A stretch of DNA of 64,000 bases from Bacteroidales bacterium (GTDB lineage: Bacteria > Bacteroidota > Bacteroidia > Bacteroidales > VadinHA17): the NCBI GenBank assembly GCA_035541795.1, contig DATKMR010000014.1:214029-278028 (forward strand), written 5' to 3'. Under the pieces are notes generated by a model. That model searched no databases. It saw nothing but the letters and a program-made list of their open reading frames with translations, and was not told the DNA's origin. Positions 25,162-36,069 of the stretch are shown here, one piece after another (within the stretch, counting starts at the first letter, position 1; every line of letters begins with the position of its first letter). The position numbers and the translations under genes are program-made.

Positions 25162-25485
25162 GAATTATTCAGGGAAGATCATTTTTAATATGCTGGTTCA
25201 TCGGATTTTTTTATCCGTAGGGCTGTAACTGCGTTACAAAGTGTCACTACCAAATGTCGTGGGATATATAATAAAATCCTAAATTTTCAGACAGAAAAAC
25301 TTGACTTTGATTCTTCCCTGTCTTAATTTTATAGGTGCAATCCAATGTCTAAAATAATGTCTGTCAAAGGAGATCGTGGTTCAGCCATGGAGCATTTTAT
25401 TGAACATTACCTTACCCTTAGTTTTTGATATTGACAAGAAGGGGGTACTGTCTTTAAGGAAGGTAAAACATTTTTCATAATAGTC

Positions 25486-25704
25486 ATGAGCATGAATAAT
25501 AATTCTTATCGTGGTGTTGTTAAAACAAAGCAACAGATGGCGGATGAATTTGGTATCTGCAGGAAGACTTTCAACAGGTTAATGCTGAAAAAGAACATCA
25601 GGCTGGAAAGGGGGTTGATATACCCCCGCGACCAGAGGAGTATCTACGAGGCACTTGGCTCACCCGGCGATCAGGGCAAGATCTCTGCAACTCCTAAATT
25701 GTAG
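25486..25704 (+). CDS. Small HTH-like protein, DUF4248-like (typical of Bacteroidota mobile or phage-derived regions)
   Basis: 72 aa. KQQMADEFGICRKTFNRLMLKK......YPRDQRSIYEALGSP resembles the DUF4248 pattern as I remember it. It is an isolated ORF in a 1.26 kb otherwise non-coding stretch. Confidence 0.4.
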   Translation: MSMNNNSYRGVVKTKQQMADEFGICRKTFNRLMLKKNIRLERGLIYPRDQRSIYEALGSPGDQGKISATPKL

Positions 25705-26424
25705 CATCGGAACGTTCCGGACCTCATTTCTGGCAAAACAGCGCTCCTGATGCAAAAATCCATTGGAATATCTCCAGCGGGGGAGGTGTATAACTTAAAG
25801 TCCCCTGGGATTCCAGTAGGTTAGTAGCTTTTAGAGGTTCCTGCCGAAGCTAGTAATCCTTTATTCTACAACTATTTCACTGCTGAGGGAATCTGAACTG
25901 AGAATTCCCGAAAGGCAATCCAGCCTCACTCATTATTTAAAATTGTCAATTTGACAAATCGCTTCCCGCACACAAAACCGGAATAGTCGTCTTCGTCAGA
26001 CCAAATCGGCGGGCATGAAGTTTGGGTTAATTGGCTTTGCCGGGCTCACCGCCAAGGGCGGTTCGGTTCACTGGTGCTTGCACCGGAAAGGAGTCCAGAG
26101 CTTCCGCGAGAGCTGTAGCCACTCTGCGGAAGCTCTGCTCTAGGGTTCAAACCTGTTGATTGCCTGGGTTTGATTTATTATTACGAAAATAAAACATGCA
26201 ATGGGAATTTTTGGGAACAAATGGGAATTCTTTGAACTGGTTTTATTAAGCTATTTCTTGTTCGAGCTTAAAAATCTGAAGGTTAGTAAACATAATGGTT
26301 CATTAACCAAATTGACACGGTTGACTTTAAATGTTTCATGGTTTATTTTTGTTAATGTCAAGTCTTGAATGTCTTAGGTCAATATTCGCTTCCATTTCAA
26401 TATAATTCCTTTCGTATATTAACT

Positions 26425-27477
26425 ATGTCACAAAAGATTAAGATTGCCACCTATAACTGCGAGAATCTTTTCAGCAGATCAAGGATTTTCAAGGAAGATG
26501 ATCCGAAAGCCAGAAAACTGTTAGAAGCAGTAGAAAAGCTTGAAGAGGAGCTTAAAAAGCCTGTTTTTGATCAGGCTGAAATCTCGAGCCTTAAAGCTCA
26601 GCTAAAAGGTTATGCAACCATTATTGATGTCCGTGAAAAGCATACTAAAAAGGGGACAGGATCCAAAAATTGGGTCGGATGGATTGAATTTGAAATGGAA
26701 CCTGCCGATACAAAATCTGTAAGAAACCTTGCAAAGGTGATTTCTGAAATCGATGCTGATATAATTTGTCTTATTGAGGTTGAAAACAGGACGCTGCTTC
26801 AAAGGTTCCATGATGAAATTCTCTACAGAGATTTTCTCAAGCCTATCGGGAAGCTGCCGTATAAGCATATAATGCTGATTGATGGTAATGATCCTCGTGG
26901 CATAGATGTAAGCCTGATGTCGAGACACCCTATCATGAATATGAAAAGCTATATTGATGATACTACTGATTACCTGGGGAAGACCGTAAAGACCTTTTCA
27001 AGAGACTGCCTTCATATTCAGTTAGATATTAAAGCTGTCAAGCCTCTCAATATTTTCATAAATCATTTGAAATCACAGGGTTATTCAGGAGGTCAGGATC
27101 CAGGGGGGGACATACGAAGGAAAGGTCAGGCAAAGCGTGTAGCCGAAATAATAAATGAATTGGATCTGAAAAATGATTATATAATTGTTGCCGGTGACAT
27201 GAACAGCGATCATTCCAGTGACTCGCTTGCCCCACTCATTATGAACGATGAACTTCATAACCTCAACCTTATGCTGCCTGAGAATGAACGTGGAACTTAT
27301 GGAACCGGCAAAGAGCAACTCGACTATCTGATTGTAACAGAACCCTTGAAAGCAAGATGCAGGAATCTTCAAATAAACAGAAGCGGCATTTATACGAAGC
27401 CTGGAGTTGGAGGGATAAGTAATATTACAGAAGCAGCATCCGATCACGCTGCAGTGGTGGCTGAGTTTGATTTCTAA
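26425..27477 (+). CDS. Endonuclease/exonuclease/phosphatase (EEP) superfamily hydrolase
   Basis: EEP catalytic motifs appear in order: IATYNCENLF, DIICLIEVEN, AGDMNSD and the C-terminal SDHAAV. ATG 26425 is preferred over TTG 26365. No signal peptide. Confidence 0.8.
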   Translation: MSQKIKIATYNCENLFSRSRIFKEDDPKARKLLEAVEKLEEELKKPVFDQAEISSLKAQLKGYATIIDVREKHTKKGTGSKNWVGWIEFEMEPADTKSVRNLAKVISEIDADIICLIEVENRTLLQRFHDEILYRDFLKPIGKLPYKHIMLIDGNDPRGIDVSLMSRHPIMNMKSYIDDTTDYLGKTVKTFSRDCLHIQLDIKAVKPLNIFINHLKSQGYSGGQDPGGDIRRKGQAKRVAEIINELDLKNDYIIVAGDMNSDHSSDSLAPLIMNDELHNLNLMLPENERGTYGTGKEQLDYLIVTEPLKARCRNLQINRSGIYTKPGVGGISNITEAASDHAAVVAEFDF

Positions 27478-27664
27478 ACCATTGTAAGTCAAATATATAA
27501 ATTACGTTATTATTTAATATATCTTATTTAAGAGGTTGAAGTATTAAATACAGGTTTTCAATCACACGCACGGGGTAGATTAATAGGACTTATCCTCAAT
27601 GGTCTTAAAATGGAACTCTCTTTTATAGTAAAAGTGTCTGAAATATAATTAAATACGAAATACC

Positions 27665-28660
27665 ATGACCGGACTTGGATTTCTTGATCTTGTGATTGGA
27701 CTGATCTTTATCTATCTGATCTTCAGTATAGCTTGTTCTACATTCTGGGAAATAATTATCAGTTTTTCAAATCTCCGAGGACGGATGCTGTCCAAGTGGA
27801 TTACGGACACATTCGGGAAGGGTGAGAACGACCTTGGCAAACGAATTGAAGATCACCAGCTGATAAGCGGATTAACGAAGAAGAATGGATTAAAACCTTC
27901 ATATATTTCTTCGAGTGTCTTCACAGATGTCCTCCTGGATCTGATCAACTTCGATGGGCATGAGTCTGCTACTTTGAGCTTTAATTCGGAAATATTACGA
28001 AGTAAGATAATAGCGTCTGACTTACTGAAAGGGAAAGACGATTTAAAGAGGATTTTACTCCAGTACCTTTCGGACACTAATGGCAAGATTGACCAGTTCA
28101 AGATAAAAATAGCAAGATGGTATGATGAAGCTCAGGAGAGACTGATTGGCTCATATAAGAAAAAACTTCAGTTGTGGATCTTTATAATTTCCATCGTACT
28201 GGTTGGTGCAACAAATACGGATACTTTCACCATCTGTTCTTATTTGTATAACAATGATACTGCACGGCAGGCAATTGCCAATAAAGCTTCATTATTTGTA
28301 CAGGATACATCTGTTGTCAGGTTGGTTTCGGCAATTGATACAATGAAGATTTCAGCCTCCGCTAAATTGAGTCAGGATGAATCTGTTAAGAAAATATCCA
28401 GGAACTTTGAGACTTTGAAGAATCTTGATAAAGAACTGAGGAAGGCCGATCTTCCTATAGGATGGAAAGATGTGAAGCTTGAAAACTTCTGGGATTACAT
28501 AAAGAAAATTGGAGGACTTCTCATAACCGCCCTGGCTGTATCGATGGGATCACCATTCTGGTTTGATTTACTCGGTAAGCTTGTTAATCTGAGAGCCGCC
28601 GGGAATAAGCCAAAGTCGGTACTTGATGAAAAAAAAGTGAAAAAGGAAAAAAATAGTTAA
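27665..28660 (+). CDS. Three-TM membrane protein of unknown function
   Basis: Hydrophobic segments lie at about aa 5-33, 168-186 and 283-303 (GGLLITALAVSMGSPFWFDLL). Long charged helical loops separate them, and the tail is Lys-rich. The patatin gene follows after 21 nt. Confidence 0.6.
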   Translation: MTGLGFLDLVIGLIFIYLIFSIACSTFWEIIISFSNLRGRMLSKWITDTFGKGENDLGKRIEDHQLISGLTKKNGLKPSYISSSVFTDVLLDLINFDGHESATLSFNSEILRSKIIASDLLKGKDDLKRILLQYLSDTNGKIDQFKIKIARWYDEAQERLIGSYKKKLQLWIFIISIVLVGATNTDTFTICSYLYNNDTARQAIANKASLFVQDTSVVRLVSAIDTMKISASAKLSQDESVKKISRNFETLKNLDKELRKADLPIGWKDVKLENFWDYIKKIGGLLITALAVSMGSPFWFDLLGKLVNLRAAGNKPKSVLDEKKVKKEKNS

Positions 28661-28681
28661 TCGCATTTTAACCACTATATA

Positions 28682-29686
28682 ATGGCAGCCAGAAATTTCA
28701 GGAACCTTGTTTTTGAAGGTGGTGGTGTGAAAGGAATCGCCTATGGGGGCGCCCTGGATGTTCTAAACGAAATGGGGATACTCAACAAGATTGAACGTGT
28801 CGGAGGTACATCCGCAGGAGCAATAAATGCGGCGCTTCTGGCGACAGGACATTCAACAACAGAGATTTCTGAAATTATTTCAAATACTGATTTTTCGGCT
28901 TTCGCTGATGGAGGGTCGATTTTTACAAAGATCCCCAGGTTGTTGAAGAGATACGGAATAAACAAAGGTGATGTATTCAGCAGGTTTATAAGGGACAAAA
29001 TAGGGGAAAAGACACAAAATCCTGATTTGACATTCAATCAACTAAGTAAACGAGTTGAGGAAGGTGAACCGGGTCTCAGAAATTTGTACATAATAACGAC
29101 AGACCTTACCAGGCAAAAACCTGTGATCTTCTCTCATGAAGGAAGTGAAAATTCTGATACACCTATTTGGCTTGCTGTAAGGATGTCTATGGGCATCCCC
29201 ATTTATTTCCAATCTGTCTTTTACAAGAATTCCGTACTCGTTGACGGGGGGGTATCCTACAACTATGCCGTGAACATTTTTGACAATAAAAAGTACCTTT
29301 CAAACCAGCAGAACGGGAAATATGATTTTTATCCCGATGATAAAATCAAGGTCTTCAATTATGAAACTCTCGGGTTCAGACTCGACAGCCGGCAGGTCAT
29401 TAAATACAGCCATGATAACTGGGCAATACCACCAGAAAAAATAGAGAACATAAAACAGTTTTCAGGGGCTCTTCTGAACTTTATGATGGAGATGGCAAAC
29501 AAGTCCCATTTGCTGCCGGAAGATTGGAACAGGACTGTTTTTATAGACACTCTTGATGTACGCACCACCGATTTTCATATTAACAGGGAAAGGATCAATG
29601 CCTTGATCCGGAGCGGAAGGAATTGCACAAAACTGTATTTTGACTGGAGGGAAAAAGAGCCAATATGGAATGTTTATCCTGAATAA
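28682..29686 (+). CDS. Patatin-like phospholipase
   Basis: Oxyanion motif GGGVKG, nucleophile elbow GTSAG and catalytic-Asp motif VDGG. No signal peptide. Confidence 0.9.
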   Translation: MAARNFRNLVFEGGGVKGIAYGGALDVLNEMGILNKIERVGGTSAGAINAALLATGHSTTEISEIISNTDFSAFADGGSIFTKIPRLLKRYGINKGDVFSRFIRDKIGEKTQNPDLTFNQLSKRVEEGEPGLRNLYIITTDLTRQKPVIFSHEGSENSDTPIWLAVRMSMGIPIYFQSVFYKNSVLVDGGVSYNYAVNIFDNKKYLSNQQNGKYDFYPDDKIKVFNYETLGFRLDSRQVIKYSHDNWAIPPEKIENIKQFSGALLNFMMEMANKSHLLPEDWNRTVFIDTLDVRTTDFHINRERINALIRSGRNCTKLYFDWREKEPIWNVYPE

Positions 29687-29783
29687 TAACCGAAACAGGT
29701 AAAGCAGGAGACTCTTTACAATTATTAGTTTTTATCATCCCATATATAGAAAATTTATTTCAAACCAATTAAAAAAGATTACA

Positions 29784-30164
29784 ATGCAAAAGGCATATTT
29801 TAACCCTGAAGGTGAGCCATTAAAGATGCAGGTTGTATATAAAAATGGCGTAATTGACGCGGTTTACAACATTACTCTTTCAGAGAAAGAAAGTAACAGT
29901 GTCGTTGAAGATTTCGACGGGAATAATTTAAATCCGGAAGATGATGTTTACGCTCTCCCGGGACCAGTAGTCGATAACGATGGAAGACTAATAATCCTGA
30001 CTAACAAGTTTTACGGCCTTGACCTGGAGAAGAGCAATAAATATGAAATAGCTCTCGAAATATTTCAGGGAGGAACTCTGATCAGCACCAACACTGATTC
30101 CGGGAGTATTACGGGTAATGCGCAAAATTCCCTCCTTATTACGAAACTACTTAAACAACCATAA
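29784..30164 (+). CDS. Hypothetical protein (beta-rich, no signal peptide)
   Basis: 126 aa ORF with no recognisable motif. Its stop lies 1 nt before the next start. Confidence 0.45.
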   Translation: MQKAYFNPEGEPLKMQVVYKNGVIDAVYNITLSEKESNSVVEDFDGNNLNPEDDVYALPGPVVDNDGRLIILTNKFYGLDLEKSNKYEIALEIFQGGTLISTNTDSGSITGNAQNSLLITKLLKQP

Positions 30165-30165
30165 T

Positions 30166-31266
30166 ATGAAAAGAAGCCTGATCCTGATTATTTTCATTCT
30201 GTCTTTTAAATGTCATGCTCAGACATCTCTCCAGGAGCCTGATAGCCTTCTCAGGAAATTCAAACTGGACTTCGCACTCCCAGATGTACCAGCATTTAAA
30301 TCGCTGGAAAACGAACCTAGCAAAATCCTTCGACCCTCAACTCCGGAGGCTTTTTCAGCTTTGGTTTCGGAGTTTTTCACTGGCAATGAACTGATACTTC
30401 CAAAGTCACTTGGCATCGAAGTATCTCCCTTGCTTATTGCAGGCTCTAACAAGCTGACATTAAATAGTTTCAAGAAACACCCGGTTCTTTATAGTACCAG
30501 GATATCATTCGGCTCTTACAGAAACTCAGACAGGATTTCCACAAGTTCGGTTGGCATAAGGCTTACCATTATTGACAAGGGTGACGCCAAAAACGACAAT
30601 AAATTTCTTGGTAACCTGACAAGTTTATTGAGTAACAGCTTAAAATCAGAGATCAAAATCAGGAATGAGTATCTGAAAGAAATGAAGTACACGTTCGAGC
30701 AATGGGCAACGGACACTGTGATTAAAGCAGAGGTTGATAGTGTAGTTAGCACCAGGTACACTAAACCTGGTGATCTTGACAAAAAGATCGAAAGGCTTAA
30801 GGAAGACTACAAGAAAGAGAATTGGAATTCTCAGAAATTGGATTTCGCTTTTGCTCTTACAGGTTACTCGAAGGATTCCCTTGTAAAGAGTCTGAAGTAC
30901 AAGTCGACGGCATTCTGGTTAACTTGGGCTTTACCGGTGAAGAAATTCGGACAGTTGCTTCTGGGAAGTCATGTGTTCACATATAAAGATTCAGCGGATA
31001 ATAAGTTCTATACTGATTTCTATTTAAACAGCCGCCTTTATGTAGGATCGAACCGGCTAAAAGGCTTCGCTGAGCTTCAATATGCCATGCAGCAAAAAGA
31101 TAATATCAAAAAAGTTTTATTTGATTTAGGCGCTGAGATAAACATAAGTAATGGTATCTGGCTGGATTTTTACTCGGGAGTAGATAAAAAACTGCCAAAT
31201 GAGAATCCGGTTCTTAGTACATCTTTCAGGCTGAGGTTTACATTACCGGAGAGTTTTAAATACTAA
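30166..31266 (+). CDS. Secreted protein, possibly outer-membrane beta-barrel-like, unknown function
   Basis: Signal peptide MKRSLILIIFILSFKCHAQ. The termini alternate hydrophobic and polar residues, the middle is charged and helical, and the C-terminus ends ...FRLRFTLPESFKY (aromatic terminal residue). Confidence 0.55.
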   Translation: MKRSLILIIFILSFKCHAQTSLQEPDSLLRKFKLDFALPDVPAFKSLENEPSKILRPSTPEAFSALVSEFFTGNELILPKSLGIEVSPLLIAGSNKLTLNSFKKHPVLYSTRISFGSYRNSDRISTSSVGIRLTIIDKGDAKNDNKFLGNLTSLLSNSLKSEIKIRNEYLKEMKYTFEQWATDTVIKAEVDSVVSTRYTKPGDLDKKIERLKEDYKKENWNSQKLDFAFALTGYSKDSLVKSLKYKSTAFWLTWALPVKKFGQLLLGSHVFTYKDSADNKFYTDFYLNSRLYVGSNRLKGFAELQYAMQQKDNIKKVLFDLGAEINISNGIWLDFYSGVDKKLPNENPVLSTSFRLRFTLPESFKY

Positions 31267-31331
31267 ATCTATCCGAACAAATGTCATTAAGGATGAAATT
31301 TCTAAAATGAAATTCTAAAAGTCAGATAAAT

Positions 31332-32252
31332 ATGATATTGCAGGTAGACGATATCCAGTCATTAAACGATTTTATCGAGCAAATAGGCTCAATTAGCAAA
31401 TACCTGGTTCAGGAATTCAGCGGAGAACTATATCACTATACAAATCTGGAGGCTTTAATTGGGATAGTTCAAAAACATGATCTCTGGCTTACGAACTCAA
31501 GATTTTCTAATGATGAAACTGAATTGAATCACGGTTATGAGATCGCCAGGGAAGTTATCAATAGGCACAAACAAACTAAGACATCTACTGAGATGGCACG
31601 ATATTATGGTCTCGTGGAGTCTCTGCTAAGGAACCCCCCGCAAGGTGTATATATCTGTTGTTTCTGTGAAAGGAATAATTTACTTAGTCAGTGGCGCAGC
31701 TATGGTGAAAATGGTACCGGTGTCAGTATCGGTTTCAATCCTACAGGATTTCAAAGATTCACAGGGCCAGATCTTTCTACGGAACAATACGGATTAATGC
31801 GTCTTTGGAAAGTGTATTACGATGATCAGGTTAAAGAAAAGATCGTTGCACAGGCTTTGGAATTGATTCCTGAGATGCACAAAGGAAAATCGATTGAGTT
31901 GCAGGCCCAAAAAGCAGCTGAAGCAATTCATTTCTTTCTACCAACATTTAAAAACAAGGATTTTGTTGATGAAGATGAACGCCGTTTGATCTTCACACCT
32001 TCAAAAAATTGCAGTGTTAAGCCTTTATACAGGTACAGGAGACAAATGCTAGTTCCTTATTTTAGTCTTAATTCGCTTGTAAATCAGAACAATCAAAACA
32101 ATCAGAACCCATGCAGATTACCAATAAAAAGTGTCATGGTGGGTCCGAGCGAAAGGAAACAGATTAATAAGGAAAGCATTGAATTACTGATGCACAATAA
32201 CAATTATGGAGATGCAGATATCGAAGTATCTGATACCCCATACCGGGGGTAA
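31332..32252 (+). CDS. DUF2971-like protein
   Basis: LYHYTNLEALIGIVQKHDLWLTNSRFSNDETE resembles the DUF2971 N-terminal signature as I remember it. It contains an NQNNQNNQN low-complexity stretch. Confidence 0.6.
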   Translation: MILQVDDIQSLNDFIEQIGSISKYLVQEFSGELYHYTNLEALIGIVQKHDLWLTNSRFSNDETELNHGYEIAREVINRHKQTKTSTEMARYYGLVESLLRNPPQGVYICCFCERNNLLSQWRSYGENGTGVSIGFNPTGFQRFTGPDLSTEQYGLMRLWKVYYDDQVKEKIVAQALELIPEMHKGKSIELQAQKAAEAIHFFLPTFKNKDFVDEDERRLIFTPSKNCSVKPLYRYRRQMLVPYFSLNSLVNQNNQNNQNPCRLPIKSVMVGPSERKQINKESIELLMHNNNYGDADIEVSDTPYRG

Positions 32253-32455
32253 AATAACTGCAATACTTTGCCCGGTGCTTTCCGACGTATTAAGCAACTT
32301 TGATTTATGATCCGTTTAATTATGGAAATATTTAGTAAATATTTTACTGAACTGAGAATGTCCTGATCATACTGATGTGTTTGGTTCTGAAATACCAAAT
32401 CGCGGATGAAGTGACAGGAATCAATTCCAGATAAAAGTGTCTTAAATCTCTTATA

Positions 32456-33781
32456 ATGTCTGATACGAACAAAAGAATAGTCGACCCCGTTATCATGGTA
32501 CCGGGAATCACTGCAACATATCTGCTGGATGAATATCCAGTTAGTCATGAACAGGTTTGGAATTTATTGAGCAATAAGTTTGAAAGGGTAGCACTGCATC
32601 CAAATAATCTCAGATATGAAGCCCAGGAGCCGGCTCGTATTAGACCAGGACAGATATTTGAGATAGCTTATAAAGAGTTAATAGAAGAACTAAGGTATAA
32701 CTTAAAAGATAAGGAGGACCTGCCGATACCAGTGTATCCGTTTGGATATGACTGGAGAAAACCTTTGGAGGCGATTGAGGCGGAACTTGATGAATTTATT
32801 CAGGAGGTTATTGAGCGCACAGTGCTATTGAGGCATTATCATGATGCAGGTTATTATGAATCTCCAAAGGTAAATCTCATCGGACATTCTATGGGGGGCC
32901 TTGTTATAACAGGATATCTTATCAACAAAGGGAAAGATGCCCCTGTAAACAAAGTAGTTACTTTAGCTACTCCATTTAAAGGATCATTTGAGTCAGTTTT
33001 AAAACTTGCTACTGGAAACGCTGAACTTGGAACATCCTCGAATAGTTCCAGAGAAAGGGAAACTGCCAGGGTAACTCCATCATTATATTATCTGATTCCA
33101 TCATTCATCAAAGGTATCAGTTATGCTCAGGGAATTCCTCAATCACTCTTTGATCCAGGGGCATGGCAACCTTCAATTACGCTGTCTATAGCTGAGTTTA
33201 TAAGACTCAAAGGACTACCGGGCGACAATATTCAGGAAAAAGCTGCAAGTATATTCAAAAGTCTTCTTGACCGTGCAAAAGAACATAGTGAGAGAATAGG
33301 ATCTTTTAAACTTGAAGATGCAGGTCTTGATGTGCATAGCTGGCTAGCAGTTATCGGCGTTAATGTCAAAACACGTGTTAAATTAAATATAGTAAAGACA
33401 AATGGCAGTGCTGATTTTGATATCAGACCTGGTGACCGTCTTGACAATTGGACCGAAACGGATAAAATTCAACAAAGACTGACCGGAGACGGGACAGTAC
33501 CCTTCGAAGGAGCCGTACCTCCATTTCTTAATGAAGAAAATCTGGTTTGCATTACCCCGGATGATTATGGATACTGGGAGCTGAAAGATAAAGCTCTTTC
33601 AGCTATTGGAGGATTTCATGGAATACTTCCTAATATGAACATGATCCATCGTCTCATAGTCAGGTTTCTAAAAGACCTGGACGATATAAGAGGAAATACC
33701 TGGGGTTCCAGGGCTCCAGGTGCAGAAAAATGGAACCCTCCTCTTAAACTGACTGAGTGGGAAATAGATCGTAAAAGGTAA
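32456..33781 (+). CDS. Alpha/beta-hydrolase lipase, LCAT-like
   Basis: VIMVPGITATYL, the YDWR motif (PFGYDWRKP) and the nucleophile elbow GHSMGG are arranged as in lecithin:cholesterol acyltransferase-type lipases. No signal peptide. Confidence 0.75.
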   Translation: MSDTNKRIVDPVIMVPGITATYLLDEYPVSHEQVWNLLSNKFERVALHPNNLRYEAQEPARIRPGQIFEIAYKELIEELRYNLKDKEDLPIPVYPFGYDWRKPLEAIEAELDEFIQEVIERTVLLRHYHDAGYYESPKVNLIGHSMGGLVITGYLINKGKDAPVNKVVTLATPFKGSFESVLKLATGNAELGTSSNSSRERETARVTPSLYYLIPSFIKGISYAQGIPQSLFDPGAWQPSITLSIAEFIRLKGLPGDNIQEKAASIFKSLLDRAKEHSERIGSFKLEDAGLDVHSWLAVIGVNVKTRVKLNIVKTNGSADFDIRPGDRLDNWTETDKIQQRLTGDGTVPFEGAVPPFLNEENLVCITPDDYGYWELKDKALSAIGGFHGILPNMNMIHRLIVRFLKDLDDIRGNTWGSRAPGAEKWNPPLKLTEWEIDRKR

Positions 33782-33914
33782 CTAAAGTCACTATGTATTA
33801 AGAGGTTAATCAATGGCATGGAAATGTTTTTATTTATGTTGTTAAAGGACTCAACTGAATTGGACATTAAATAAGTACTATGTAAATAATTGTGTTAAGG
33901 ATTTAAAACTTATT

Positions 33915-34727
33915 ATGGTCATGAAAGATTTTTTCAAGAAAATTGATGAGATATTGAACTATGCCGACTCAATAGTTCTGAGAAATGAAGCAAATGAGGT
34001 TTTTTTCAGGGGTGTTAACAGGCAATCTTATGGATTGTTACCCGGTTTAGCCAGGATTAAAGCAGATGGCCTTGATATTGTGGAGAACAGGATGTATTAT
34101 GATTTTGTTAATTATGGTGGCCACCTGACGCCGCAGAATAAGAATACCTGGGATATCCTTTTCCTGATGCAGCATCACGGTCTTCCGACCAGGCTTCTTG
34201 ACTGGACTGAGAGTCTGTTAACTGCACTGTACTTTGCTACCAAGGATACGGTTTTTACCGAAGATGCTGCAATTTGGGTACTGGATCCTTATGGGCTAAA
34301 TGAATTATATAGTGATAATGACAGCATTGACTACCTTGATGTTTCATACCCTGAAGGCTATTTCAGTTATTTTGTTGATGAAACATCTTCAGTGTACAGA
34401 AAATTTCCGAAGAGCATTATTGCAATAGGTGTCAATCCGCCTAATTCCAGGATAGTTGCTCAAAAGGGAGCATTTACATTCCATAATCCAAGAAGCATGC
34501 GCAAACCTCTTGAAGAATTTAAGGAACTTTCTAATAAGAATTACTTACAGAAATTTATAATTGAAAGATCTTTGTTCAATGATGCAAGAAAGTTCCTGAT
34601 GTACTCCAATATGAATGAATTTTCCATGTTTCCTGATTTGGATGGTTTGGCTAGGTATATAAACATGAATGAACGTTTTAATATTCAAGAGTATTATAAA
34701 CCTGTTCAAGAAAAAAAAAGTAAGTGA
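33915..34727 (+). CDS. FRG domain protein
   Basis: VFFRGVNRQSYGLLPGLAR and LMQHHGLPTRLLDWTESLLTALYFA match the FRG domain signature. Confidence 0.75.
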   Translation: MVMKDFFKKIDEILNYADSIVLRNEANEVFFRGVNRQSYGLLPGLARIKADGLDIVENRMYYDFVNYGGHLTPQNKNTWDILFLMQHHGLPTRLLDWTESLLTALYFATKDTVFTEDAAIWVLDPYGLNELYSDNDSIDYLDVSYPEGYFSYFVDETSSVYRKFPKSIIAIGVNPPNSRIVAQKGAFTFHNPRSMRKPLEEFKELSNKNYLQKFIIERSLFNDARKFLMYSNMNEFSMFPDLDGLARYINMNERFNIQEYYKPVQEKKSK

Positions 34728-34890
34728 TTAGTTTAGCTGAGCCAGAATAGTGGATTTAAATAAAAGGTTTGAATTTGTATCCGGATTATCCGATGACTTG
34801 TCACAAACTTTCAGAGCTACAGATCCAGGTATAGCTACAATATTCATCAGGTAACCCTTTATTCTTATGAGGCGTCAAAGTTTTAAAAAT

Positions 34891-35667
34891 CTATTTAGGA
34901 TACATCTTTCTGATATATAGCATGTCGCTGCGAGATAATTTATCATTTTCTTGCGTTCCAACACCGCTCATCAAAAGTTCCGCCGGGAAGGAGTAGAGCA
35001 TAATAGATTTGGGATCGAATTTTGTCGCATTTAGCTGATCCAGGGAATATTTCTGTATCACATTCTGATATGTATCATCCCTTGACCAGTTGTTGGGTGG
35101 ACCTGCAAAGAACTTGTAAACCGCCTCTTCATTCCATTTCAGCCCACCCTTCGGATTCTGATGTTCATGAATGCATCCGAGAGCATGGCCAAACTCATGC
35201 AGAACAACCCGGTTGTACTCCTCATCCGCAGTGTTGTCGGTAAGCCATCCAAAATTCATCGTGGGCTTGTTTTTCGGGATATTGATATTATCAGTTCCTA
35301 TATAGGACCAGGAACCGGGATCCGATTCAAAAGAAATACGGATGTCGGACCTGGCTTGAGCGGAATTGAAACTGAACCCAATGTTTGCATATTTCAGCCA
35401 CCCGGATGCATGAGCAATCGTTTTATTCCTCTGGATCTTGCTACCATCGAGAAAACAGATATTCAATACCCTCCCCGTTGACCACATTTTCCCCGTAATG
35501 AGCGCCATCTTCTGTGGACTGACAGACATACCTGGCAGCCTTGTCAGAACAGGCTTGTTCCTCTTGTCTTCATAAATTGCCCGGTTCATTGCTTCGATCT
35601 TATTATCTCCGGCAATTACCCTGTCAAAGCAAAAATGAATGTGCCTGGAATCAATTTTCATTTCCAT
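34891..35667 (-). CDS. Astacin-like (M12) zinc metalloprotease without a signal peptide
   Basis: Extended zinc motif HEFGHALGCIHEH and a Met-turn SIMLY. The N-terminus MEMKIDSRHIHFCFDR is not hydrophobic. Confidence 0.8.
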   Translation of the reverse strand: MEMKIDSRHIHFCFDRVIAGDNKIEAMNRAIYEDKRNKPVLTRLPGMSVSPQKMALITGKMWSTGRVLNICFLDGSKIQRNKTIAHASGWLKYANIGFSFNSAQARSDIRISFESDPGSWSYIGTDNINIPKNKPTMNFGWLTDNTADEEYNRVVLHEFGHALGCIHEHQNPKGGLKWNEEAVYKFFAGPPNNWSRDDTYQNVIQKYSLDQLNATKFDPKSIMLYSFPAELLMSGVGTQENDKLSRSDMLYIRKMYPK

Positions 35668-35961
35668 TTTTGAAAATTTAGAAAATTATAACAAAAAGTA
35701 TAAAAATCGGACTTTAGAAGGATTATGTATTGTCTCAACCAGCAAACTGAATCAAATTTACACTATAGTAAACTGAAAGTCAAGATAAAAAGGATAAAAA
35801 AAATGATTTCCATGCCTGATTTGACTATTTTATTAATATCTGATTATCATCTGACAGTCTGTGAGAAACCGGGGTTTTTGAAATGACCAGAGTTTTCTTT
35901 ACGGACTGACTAATCAGGAATAGAATTATCGGAGACCACCAGGAAAAACGAGATTTACCAG

Positions 35962-35990
35962 GAATAAAAAAGGGTGATGAATTCACCCTC
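35962..35990 (-). terminator. Rho-independent terminator downstream of tRNA-Pro
   Basis: On the minus strand, stem AGGGTGA / TCACCCT with a 5-nt loop, followed by TTTTTATT. Confidence 0.7.
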
Positions 35991-35995
35991 TTTTG

Positions 35996-36069
35996 TCGGG
36001 GTGATCCGACTTGAACGGACGACCCCTTGCACCCCATGCAAGTGCGCTAGCCAACTGCGCCACACCCCG
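35996..36069 (-). tRNA. tRNA-Pro (anticodon GGG)
   Basis: Hand-folded 74-nt cloverleaf from the minus strand: acceptor CGGGGTG/CACCCCG, D stem GCGC/GCGC, anticodon stem CTTGC/GCAAG with loop AT-GGG-GT, T arm GTCCG-TTCAAGT-CGGAT, discriminator A. No encoded CCA. Confidence 0.9.

What the first reader, a model, noticed from the sequence alone, without database searches (positions are those of the whole stretch)
27665..29686. Three-TM protein plus patatin phospholipase two-gene cassette (21-nt spacer): candidate membrane-sensor/effector pair
The 331-aa protein has three hydrophobic segments separated by long charged helical loops, and a conserved-looking C-terminal GSPFWFDLLGKLVNLRAAGNKP. A cytoplasmic patatin with a complete catalytic set (GGGVKG, GTSAG, VDGG) follows after only 21 nt. 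In CBASS-type systems, patatin effectors are controlled by a nucleotide signal. Here the only visible partner is a membrane protein. That suggests the phospholipase is gated or tethered by a membrane-integrity or envelope sensor. I know of no described system with this architecture, but I cannot search for one.
Basis: inference. Interest (0 to 1): 0.7.

Follow-up and report, generated by a model that had tools for sequence, protein, structure and literature searches.

The report
Membrane protein paired with exchangeable hydrolases
The membrane protein next to this phospholipase belongs to a very large, unnamed family that sits beside many kinds of signal-peptide-less degradative enzymes, above all cell-wall hydrolases, so it most likely acts as a holin-like gate that lets such enzymes reach the cell envelope.

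Summary

The membrane protein has no Pfam, NCBIfam, PADLOC or PHROGs match and no fold match in PDB or BFVD. It nevertheless belongs to a family of about 16,400 clusters at 50% identity, spread across many bacterial phyla.

The neighbouring enzyme is exchangeable. In 80 genome loci and 7 plasmid loci the adjacent gene is most often a cell-wall hydrolase without a signal peptide (amidase, CHAP, lysozyme, GH19, GH46, M15). Other partners are patatin, S8, sedolisin, M4 and C1 proteases, a Tle1-like lipase, a nuclease or a TIR protein. TM-patatin pairs recur in at least four phyla with unrelated patatin subfamilies.

A third, envelope-targeted gene is frequent. In the window it is a 126-aa protein plus a predicted outer-membrane β-barrel (30166-31266).

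My best reading (about 0.45) is a non-phage, holin-like gate that gives signal-peptide-less hydrolases access to the envelope, for suicide lysis or for toxin release. It is not CBASS. No experiment supports any of this.

The parts
27665..28660 (+). 331-aa inner-membrane protein with three TM helices. Predicted topology is N-out, a cytoplasmic helical loop of about 140 aa, a periplasmic helical loop of about 90 aa, and a basic C-terminal tail in the cytoplasm. It is the conserved component of the module and belongs to a large unnamed family.
   Evidence: ORF, hydropathy, positive-inside charge pattern over 27 sequences; invariant motifs; AF2 pLDDT 84; no Pfam, PADLOC, NCBIfam or PHROGs hit; no PDB or BFVD relative; 168 close homologues, at least 573 species genomes, 16,413 clusters at 50% identity.
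28661..28681 (+). 21-nt spacer between the TM gene and the patatin gene, consistent with co-transcription.
   Evidence: sequence TCGCATTTTAACCACTATATA; no terminator-like site in the spacer.
28682..29686 (+). 334-aa patatin-like phospholipase without a signal peptide. It occupies the exchangeable enzyme slot of the module. The closest solved relatives are the secreted toxins VipD, ExoU and PlpD. It is not a CapV equivalog.
   Evidence: PF01734, E 7e-30; GGGVKG, GTSAG, VDGG; CBASS_lipase 29 bits against a cut-off of 200; VipD 2e-12, ExoU 3e-10, PlpD 5e-9; no N-terminal hydrophobic segment.
29784..30164 (+). 126-aa protein with no signal peptide and no known domain. It is always immediately upstream of the β-barrel gene.
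   Evidence: homologues L094 6987-7367, L096, L097, each directly preceding a p382 homologue; no PDB relative.
30166..31266 (+). 366-aa protein with a signal peptide, predicted to be an outer-membrane β-barrel of about 12 strands with a helical insert. The longest ORF starts at 30118; the likely true start MKRSLIL... is at 30166, right after the p126 stop. It is a recurrent third component.
   Evidence: AF2 pLDDT 82; Foldseek hits only outer-membrane barrels: BrkA, Hbp and EspP β-domains, FapF, COG4313, OccK; probability 1.0; homologues beside the TM gene in L034, L049, L052, L061, L062, L074, L094, L097.
26365..27477 (+). 370-aa endonuclease/exonuclease/phosphatase-fold protein without a signal peptide, 187 nt upstream of the TM gene. 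It may be a second enzyme of the module, but the link is weak.
   Evidence: PF03372, E 5e-15; EEP-fold genes also lie beside the TM gene in L001 and L097, but from unrelated subfamilies.
31332..34727 (+). Block of DUF2971, an LCAT-like α/β hydrolase and an FRG-domain protein. The same block follows a 48%-identical TM gene in another Bacteroidota MAG (L095), where a signal-peptide-less S8 peptidase replaces the patatin. Whether it is part of the system or a neighbouring defence-island block is unresolved.
   Evidence: DUF2971 / PDC-S31 weak; LCAT; FRG / PDC-S15 E 6e-50; L095 synteny.
25200..36069 (.). Low-GC island (0.37-0.40 against 0.43-0.47) that holds all of the above. Its right edge is a tRNA-Pro gene (35995-36069, minus strand).
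   Evidence: composition; tRNA; housekeeping genes on both sides; no att-like direct repeat found.

Best explanation
The 331-aa protein is the conserved inner-membrane component of a modular, mostly chromosomal or plasmid-borne envelope-breaching cassette. Functionally it behaves like a holin. It gives a co-encoded, cytoplasmically folded hydrolase that lacks a signal peptide access to the membrane, periplasm or exterior. In this window the hydrolase is a patatin phospholipase; elsewhere it is usually an endolysin-like cell-wall hydrolase, or a protease, lipase or nuclease. A third, envelope-targeted protein often completes the cassette and probably deals with the outer membrane. Here that is the p126 plus outer-membrane β-barrel pair.

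Shown: the family exists and is conserved; it has a three-TM N-out/C-in topology with a basic C-terminal tail; it sits tightly on the same strand next to exchangeable signal-peptide-less hydrolases; and outer-membrane proteins recur as third components.

Inferred: that the membrane protein permeabilises or translocates; that its trigger is a change of membrane state; and the biological purpose. The purpose could be suicide lysis for phage defence, release of toxins or injection particles, or non-lytic secretion for antagonism.
For: 1. Partner spectrum. Among same-strand neighbours of 80 genome loci, Pfam finds Patatin 6, Peptidase_S8 7, Pro-kumamolisin 4, Amidase_2 6, CHAP 3, PG_binding_1 4, plus Phage_lysozyme, M15_4, GH19, GH46, Tle1-like lipase, Endonuclease_NS, Peptidase_C1 2 and TIR 2.
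2. Position. Of 21 cell-wall-hydrolase hits within ±6 kb, 18 lie within 400 nt on the same strand and none lies beyond 1.1 kb. None of these families reaches 2 members among 79 control ORFs 3-6 kb away.
3. No signal peptides. The adjacent cell-wall hydrolases, patatins, S8, M4 and sedolisin proteases lack N-terminal signal peptides. Several still carry cell-wall-binding domains that only make sense outside the cytoplasm (PG_binding_1, SH3).
4. Independent annotation. RefSeq annotation of cultured strains shows the same pattern:
   - Hymenobacter canadensis: TM, amidase, S8 peptidase.
   - Caballeronia: TM, amidase, PG-binding protein.
   - Rhizobium phaseoli: cell wall hydrolase, TM.
   - Rhizobium sp. 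NXC14: patatin, TM.
5. Close relatives (48-59% identity) keep the TM gene and swap the enzyme: S8 peptidase in L095, GH46 for P0008, M4 in L084, CHAP plus patatin in L001.
6. TM and patatin identities do not co-vary, so patatins were recruited several times.
7. Three-gene sets of cell-wall hydrolase, TM protein and outer-membrane lipoprotein or β-barrel occur in L017, L040, L054, L034 and L049. They mirror the inner membrane / cell wall / outer membrane logic of Gram-negative lysis cassettes and T10SS (PMC9527704).
8. The N-out, C-in topology with three TMs and a basic C-terminal tail matches class I holins by positive-inside analysis of 27 sequences. The comparison with class I holins rests on textbook knowledge.
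Against: - There is no sequence or fold relationship to any holin family.
- At about 300-350 aa with two large helical loops, the protein is several times larger than typical holins.
- It has invariant polar residues (E29, R38, Y80, N184, near-invariant D186, K305). That is unusual for holins and more typical of enzymes or transporters.
- It is almost absent from viruses: 0 of 50,697 GenBank phages and 1 of 2.9 million IMG/VR contigs.
- The window's own cassette has no cell-wall hydrolase.
- A patatin could act on the inner leaflet without being exported at all.
- About half of the loci have no recognisable hydrolase neighbour.
- 'Holin-like' labels based on context have been wrong before, for example CidA/LrgA (my own knowledge).
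- No experiment exists.
Confidence: 0.45

Rival explanations
1. Sensor/effector abortive-infection system. The membrane protein senses phage-induced envelope or membrane perturbation through its periplasmic or cytoplasmic helical domains. It then activates or recruits the neighbouring enzyme, which kills the cell. It does not itself form a hole.
For: - The window's cassette lies in a low-GC island next to tRNA-Pro, together with candidate defence genes: FRG / PDC-S15 at E 6e-50 and DUF2971 / PDC-S31.
- The partner list (patatin, TIR, nuclease, proteases) resembles the effector repertoire of known defence systems.
- L084 sits beside TIR-EndoNS, MAP3K_TRAF_bd/TPR-S, patatin and TIR genes.
- The Ralstonia homologue lies in the accessory region of a prophage next to ParDE and methylases.
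- Flanks include CRISPR-Cas, AbiEii-like and ResIII genes.
- Close patatin relatives pair with a TIR protein or with a different 2-TM protein, which is typical modular shuffling in defence systems.
Against: - The most frequent partners are cell-wall hydrolases without signal peptides. They cannot reach their substrate unless something opens the inner membrane, and the TM protein is the only membrane protein in many two-gene cassettes.
- No PADLOC model hits the TM protein.
- Only about 5 of 79 flanking control ORFs hit PADLOC models, so enrichment in defence islands is not established.
- No signalling or NTPase domain is present.
Confidence: 0.25
2. The membrane protein is itself an enzyme or transporter of envelope lipid or cell-wall precursors, or a protective (immunity-like) factor. 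It would be co-encoded with hydrolases because they work on the same envelope substrate, not because it exports them.
For: - Strong conservation of polar residues in or next to the TM helices (D8, Y17, S21, S25, E29, R38, N184, D186, K305) across phyla at about 30% identity.
- The family is large and mostly non-viral.
- Some neighbours are lipid or phosphoester enzymes: PAP2-type 'vanadium haloperoxidase', metallophosphoesterase, EEP, SGNH hydrolase.
- There is a precedent for a signal-peptide-less Amidase_2 next to a membrane protein with no export role, namely ampD-ampE (my own knowledge).
Against: - One conserved protein cannot be a specific immunity factor against amidases, muramidases, lipases, proteases and nucleases at once.
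- Partners carrying PG_binding_1 or SH3 wall-binding modules are not cytoplasmic recycling enzymes.
- There is no similarity to any enzyme or transporter fold in PDB.
Confidence: 0.15
3. The adjacency is coincidental: two unrelated genes that happen to be neighbours in a variable island.
For: - Close patatin relatives (41-51% identity) in three metagenome loci with upstream flanks lack the TM family.
- Many TM loci have unrelated neighbours.
Against: - The spacer is 21 nt on the same strand.
- TM-patatin adjacency recurs with at least three unrelated patatin subfamilies in at least four phyla.
- Of 12 patatin genes found within ±6 kb of TM genes, 6 lie within 260 nt.
Confidence: 0.05

Closest known systems
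Phage class I holins (e.g. lambda S105) with their signal-peptide-less endolysins
   Same: Three TM helices, predicted N-out/C-in topology, a basic cytoplasmic C-terminal tail, and tight same-strand linkage to endolysin-type cell-wall hydrolases without signal peptides (amidase_2, CHAP, lysozyme, GH19, M15). Outer-membrane-directed third genes are sometimes present.
   Different: - No sequence or fold similarity to any holin family.
- Three to four times larger, with two structured helical loops of about 90-140 aa.
- Invariant polar residues.
- Virtually absent from phage genomes.
- Partners extend to lipases, proteases, nucleases and TIR proteins.
- This window's cassette has no cell-wall hydrolase.
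Type 10 secretion systems (holin / cell-wall hydrolase-dependent secretion: Serratia ChiWXYZ, Salmonella TtsA, Yersinia entomophaga, clostridial TcdE/TpeE; PMC9527704, PMC10847048)
   Same: A chromosomal, non-phage cassette in which a membrane protein is genetically linked to enzymes or toxins that lack signal peptides. Some relatives carry the full set of cell-wall hydrolase, TM protein and cargo, for example CHAP-TM-patatin in Ohtaekwangia and amidase-TM-patatin in a Desulfobulbaceae MAG.
   Different: The T10SS holins are recognisable phage-derived holins and the outer-membrane step uses spanins. Here the membrane protein is an unrelated family, and the outer-membrane candidates are a β-barrel with a small partner, or simple lipoproteins. 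Secretion has not been shown.
CBASS with a CapV patatin effector
   Same: A patatin phospholipase without a signal peptide in a small cassette within a variable island.
   Different: There is no CD-NTase or other signal-generating enzyme in the island. The patatin scores 29 bits against the 200-bit cut-off of the CapV equivalog model. Its nearest solved relatives are VipD, ExoU and PlpD.
Phage WO (Wolbachia) patatin, proposed as a lysis or entry factor next to lysis genes (PMC9203015)
   Same: A patatin associated with a membrane-disrupting module rather than with a nucleotide signal.
   Different: That case is a phage context with different membrane proteins, and it is equally untested.

Membership tests
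Patatin-like phospholipase (PF01734) | Pfam domain above the gathering score, plus the Gly-rich oxyanion motif G-G-x-R/K-G, the G-x-S-x-G nucleophile elbow and the D-G-A/G catalytic Asp | tested here: met
   105 bits against a cut-off of 27.7; GGGVKG at 13, GTSAG at 42, VDGG at 187.
CBASS (CapV-type) | CD-NTase (cyclase) gene in the same operon | tested here: not met
   every ORF of the island 25.2-36 kb was scanned. None is a nucleotidyltransferase and there is no PADLOC CBASS cyclase hit.
CBASS (CapV-type) | Patatin reaches the CapV equivalog model NF041079 | tested here: not met
   29.1 bits against a cut-off of 200.
Known holin families (Pfam Phage_holin_*, PHROGs lysis groups) | Sequence match to a holin profile | tested here: not met
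   no Pfam hit at E<=0.1; no PHROG hit for 6 diverse family members.
Holin (functional class) | Small membrane protein with at least one TMD and a charged, basic cytoplasmic C-terminus | tested here: inconclusive
   Three TMDs and a basic tail (9 K/R in the last 32 residues; family mean net charge +2.4) are met. The 'small' criterion is not met: 331 aa with two large structured loops.
Holin (functional class) | Encoded next to an endolysin that lacks a signal peptide | tested here: inconclusive
   Met for the family: 18 of 80 genome loci, plus Hymenobacter, Caballeronia and R. phaseoli plasmids. Not met in this window, where the neighbour is a patatin.
Holin (functional class) | Found in phage lysis cassettes | tested here: not met
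   0 hits in 50,697 phage records; 1 IMG/VR contig, a prophage accessory region; no terminase, portal or capsid genes in the flanks.
Holin (functional class) | Forms lethal membrane lesions or releases endolysin when triggered | not testable with these tools
   Needs lambda Sam7 complementation, membrane-potential and release assays.
Type 10 secretion system | Holin, cell-wall hydrolase and cargo encoded together | tested here: inconclusive
   The window has no cell-wall hydrolase within the island. Relatives L001/L004 (CHAP-PG_binding_1, TM, patatin in L001 only) and L070 (Amidase_2-SH3, TM, patatin) have the full set.
Toxin-immunity pair (polymorphic toxin systems) | Immunity protein specific to one toxin family and co-varying with it | tested here: not met
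   The same TM family sits beside more than 10 unrelated enzyme families. TM and patatin identities do not co-vary.

The most novel reading that the evidence does not exclude
The TM family, together with its envelope-targeted third components, defines a previously unrecognised and widespread non-phage pathway. It would move folded, signal-peptide-less hydrolases and toxins across the inner membrane and out through the outer membrane. Those cargoes include endolysin-like enzymes, patatins, protealysin-type M4, S8 and sedolisin proteases, and nucleases. In this window the third component is a small protein plus an outer-membrane β-barrel. In effect this would be a new protein release or secretion system class with exchangeable cargo, used for antagonism, for release of injection particles, or for altruistic lysis.
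Probability: 0.2. Interest if true: 0.85.

Novelty: new variant of a known kind. Interest (0 to 1): 0.65.

Why it matters
Many bacterial hydrolases and toxins lack signal peptides, and how they leave the cytoplasm is unknown. From my own knowledge, protealysin-like M4 proteases are one such case.

A conserved membrane protein family of about 16,000 clusters, unnamed in every library searched, sits directly beside exactly such enzymes. That gives a concrete, testable candidate for the missing gate.

If the function is suicide lysis, it would add a new effector logic to anti-phage defence. If it is secretion, it would widen the holin-dependent (T10SS-type) principle far beyond enterobacteria and clostridia, into Bacteroidota, Acidobacteriota, Nitrospirota and rhizobial plasmids.

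Several carriers are cultured strains, so experiments are feasible.

Tried and rejected
- CBASS or another nucleotide-signal system: rejected. There is no cyclase and the CapV model is far below its cut-off.
- Known holin, phage or defence family membership for the TM protein: no hit in Pfam, NCBIfam, PADLOC or PHROGs. A family profile against PDB sequences also found nothing.
- Prophage lysis-cassette origin: not supported. There are no phage hits, one IMG/VR contig, and the flanks hold CRISPR-Cas, IS200, T4SS coupling protein and metabolic genes rather than phage structural genes.
- Domain fusions between the TM protein and an enzyme: the longer family members only have loop insertions.
- TatA-like 'TM plus amphipathic helix' idea for the conserved PFWFD...NLR helix: rejected, because its hydrophobic moment is low (0.1-0.3).
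- Obligate patatin-to-TM coupling: rejected. Close patatin relatives pair with a 2-TM protein or a TIR protein instead.
- att-type direct repeats for the island: none found.
- The sigma-70 promoter scan is uninformative for Bacteroidota.
- Defence-island enrichment of the flanks: weak, about 5 of 79 control ORFs.
Full report
**Observation.**
The first has three hydrophobic segments, at residues 6-24, 170-190 and 282-303. Its AlphaFold2 model (pLDDT 84, pTM 0.74) is all-helical, with two long helical loops. The second is a patatin (PF01734, E 7e-30) with GGGVKG, GTSAG and VDGG at residues 13, 42 and 187 and no signal peptide. An identical membrane protein is on record as a hypothetical protein of a Bacteroidales MAG.

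**What the membrane protein is.**
It matches nothing in Pfam, NCBIfam, PADLOC or PHROGs. It has no relative in PDB by sequence profile, and no fold match in PDB or BFVD.

It is nevertheless a member of a large and well-conserved family:
- 168 close homologues.
- Relatives in at least 573 species genomes, from Bacteroidota, Acidobacteriota, Nitrospirota, Pseudomonadota, Desulfobacterota, Ignavibacteriota, Gemmatimonadota and Actinomycetota.
- 16,413 clusters at 50% identity at E<=1e-3.
- Members in Methanoperedenaceae archaea.

Every member that carries a name is called 'hypothetical protein'.

Twenty positions are invariant in 27 diverse members.

**Genomic company.**
I fetched 80 genome loci and called the same-strand neighbours. 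The neighbours are very diverse (46 clusters among 67 downstream proteins) but functionally coherent. Counts below combine downstream and upstream neighbours:

| Neighbour family (Pfam) | Count |
|---|---|
| Patatin | 6 |
| Peptidase_S8 | 7 |
| Pro-kumamolisin | 4 |
| Amidase_2 | 6 |
| CHAP | 3 |
| PG_binding_1 | 4 |
| Peptidase_C1 | 2 |
| TIR | 2 |
| Phage_lysozyme, M15_4, GH46, Tle1-like lipase, Endonuclease_NS | 1 each |
| GH19 | 2 |

Iterative searches seeded with these proteins show how tightly they sit. Of 21 cell-wall-hydrolase hits within ±6 kb, 18 are within 400 nt on the same strand and none is further than 1.1 kb. Of 12 patatins, 6 are within 260 nt. Among 79 control ORFs 3-6 kb away, none of these families has two or more members. 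That output lists only the top 25 families, so the control is coarse.

None of the adjacent cell-wall hydrolases, patatins or proteases has an N-terminal signal peptide. Several of them carry PG_binding_1 or SH3 wall-binding modules.

RefSeq annotation of plasmids from cultured strains shows the same picture independently:
- Hymenobacter canadensis: non-specific endonuclease, hypothetical protein, TM, amidase, S8 peptidase.
- Caballeronia: TM, amidase, PG-binding protein.
- Rhizobium phaseoli: cell wall hydrolase, TM, metallophosphoesterase.
- Rhizobium sp. NXC14: M15 (opposite strand), patatin, TM.

**The enzyme slot is exchangeable even among close relatives of the window's protein.**

| Relative | Identity to window TM | Arrangement |
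|---|---|---|
| L095 | 48% | TM, signal-peptide-less S8 peptidase, 706-aa signal-peptide protein, then the same DUF2971 / LCAT-like / FRG block as in the window |
| P0008 | 59% | GH46 then TM, next to a phage-sheath gene |
| L084 | 56% | Signal-peptide-less M4 peptidase plus a small protein, then TM |
| L094 | 49% | TM directly followed by homologues of the window's p126 and p382 |
| L001 (Ohtaekwangia koreensis) | 44% | CHAP-PG_binding_1, TM, patatin |

TM and patatin identities do not co-vary. In L001 the TM is 44% identical and the patatin 26%. In L070 the TM is 28% and the patatin 39%. Patatins were therefore recruited several times.

From the patatin side the link is not obligate. Three close patatin relatives with upstream flanks lack the family. 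They pair with an unrelated 2-TM protein (L088) or a TIR protein (L089) instead.

**Third components.**
In the window the patatin is followed by a 126-aa protein and then a signal-peptide protein. The latter's model (pLDDT 82) is a β-barrel of about 12 strands with a helical insert. It matches only outer-membrane barrels in PDB: autotransporter β-domains, FapF, COG4313 and OccK.

Homologues of this barrel lie beside the TM gene in L034, L049, L052, L061, L062, L074, L094 and L097. The p126-barrel pair also occurs without the TM gene (L096, L100), and once next to an eCIS cluster with a LytTR regulator (L098).

Other loci have small lipoproteins after the TM gene, sometimes together with a cell-wall hydrolase (L017, L040, L054). 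A recurrent design is therefore an inner-membrane protein, a signal-peptide-less hydrolase and an envelope-targeted protein.

**Mechanism.**
A cell-wall hydrolase without a signal peptide but with wall-binding domains has to cross the inner membrane. In many two-gene cassettes the only membrane protein is this one. The most economical explanation is that it acts like a holin, as a gate that permeabilises or translocates.

The three-TM N-out/C-in topology with a basic tail agrees with this. So does the three-layer logic of inner membrane, wall and outer membrane, which parallels Gram-negative lysis cassettes and T10SS, where genetic linkage of signal-peptide-less enzymes to holins is the accepted argument (PMC9527704).

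In the window the cargo or effector is a patatin of the VipD/ExoU/PlpD type. The outer-membrane barrel may provide the second step.

I cannot tell whether the outcome is suicide lysis (defence), release of toxins or particles, or non-lytic secretion. The window's island context favours a conflict role: low GC, tRNA-Pro at one edge, and FRG and DUF2971 candidates. However, flanking genes in the wider family are mixed.

**Caveats.**
- The protein is not homologous to any holin.
- It is much larger than holins and has enzyme-like invariant polar residues.
- It is essentially absent from viruses.
- The conserved post-TM3 helix is not amphipathic.
- About half of the loci show no recognisable hydrolase neighbour.
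- My ORF calls are crude (longest ORF), especially for high-GC genomes.
- Pfam counts on sets of proteins come as aggregate tables.

I therefore give the holin-like gate 0.45, a sensor/regulator of an abortive-infection system 0.25, a membrane enzyme or protective factor 0.15, and coincidence 0.05.

**Comparison and novelty.**
The cassette works most like a holin-endolysin or T10SS module, but it fails the membership tests for holin families and for CBASS. The membrane family is unnamed, and the combination with exchangeable hydrolases and an outer-membrane barrel is not described in the libraries or papers I could search. I rate it a new variant of a known kind, with a 0.2 chance that it represents a distinct release or secretion pathway.

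Noticed in passing
window 31332-34727; L095 10273-13014: The block of DUF2971, an LCAT-like α/β hydrolase and an FRG protein (PADLOC PDC-S31 weak, PDC-S15 E 6e-50) is syntenic between the window and another Bacteroidota MAG. In both it lies downstream of the TM-hydrolase cassette. It may be a conserved multi-gene defence unit, or part of the same system.
   Followed up: partly
window 35995-36069 (- strand) and 25200-36000: A tRNA-Pro(GGG) gene bounds a low-GC island of about 10.8 kb (0.37-0.40 against 0.43-0.47) between a polysulfide-reductase/Crp region and a DUF362 gene. No integrase gene and no att-like repeat was found.
   Followed up: partly
L098 110-8658: Homologues of the window's p126 and β-barrel pair sit next to a LytTR regulator and an extracellular contractile injection system cluster (Pvc16_N, sheath, gp19 tubes, CIS_tube). 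A 59%-identical TM homologue (P0008) also lies two genes from a phage-sheath gene. This hints at a role in releasing injection particles.
   Followed up: no
L094 2755-4289; L084 5476-6830: Signal-peptide-less M4 (protealysin-like) peptidases with an emfourin-type small inhibitor gene lie just upstream of TM family genes. From memory, how such proteases leave the cell is unresolved, so the TM family is a candidate route.
   Followed up: no
window 27629-27644 and 32432-32447: A 16-nt motif, TAAAAGTGTCT(G/T)AAAT, occurs 9-21 nt upstream of the start codons of both the TM gene and the LCAT-like gene. It could be a shared regulatory site or chance.
   Followed up: no
L089 4026-4961; L088 4074-4943: Close relatives of the window's patatin (47-51% identity) are preceded by a TIR plus DUF1566-like protein (L089), or by an unrelated 289-aa protein with two central TM helices (L088). 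This patatin subfamily is therefore itself a shuffled module.
   Followed up: partly
window 34891-35667 (- strand): An astacin/M12-like zinc metalloprotease (HEFGHALG motif) without an obvious signal peptide lies at the island edge, convergent with the FRG gene.
   Followed up: no
L002 6001-8599; L101 8001-10680: In a Ralstonia prophage the TM homologue is followed by a 506-aa lipoprotein of unknown function. The pair lies in an accessory region between DNA methylases and a ParDE module, not in a recognisable lysis cassette.
   Followed up: partly
L044, L071, L078 (Acidobacteriota): The TM gene overlaps or abuts a conserved 304-331-aa signal-peptide protein of unknown function. This is a partner class that is not a signal-peptide-less hydrolase.
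   Followed up: no
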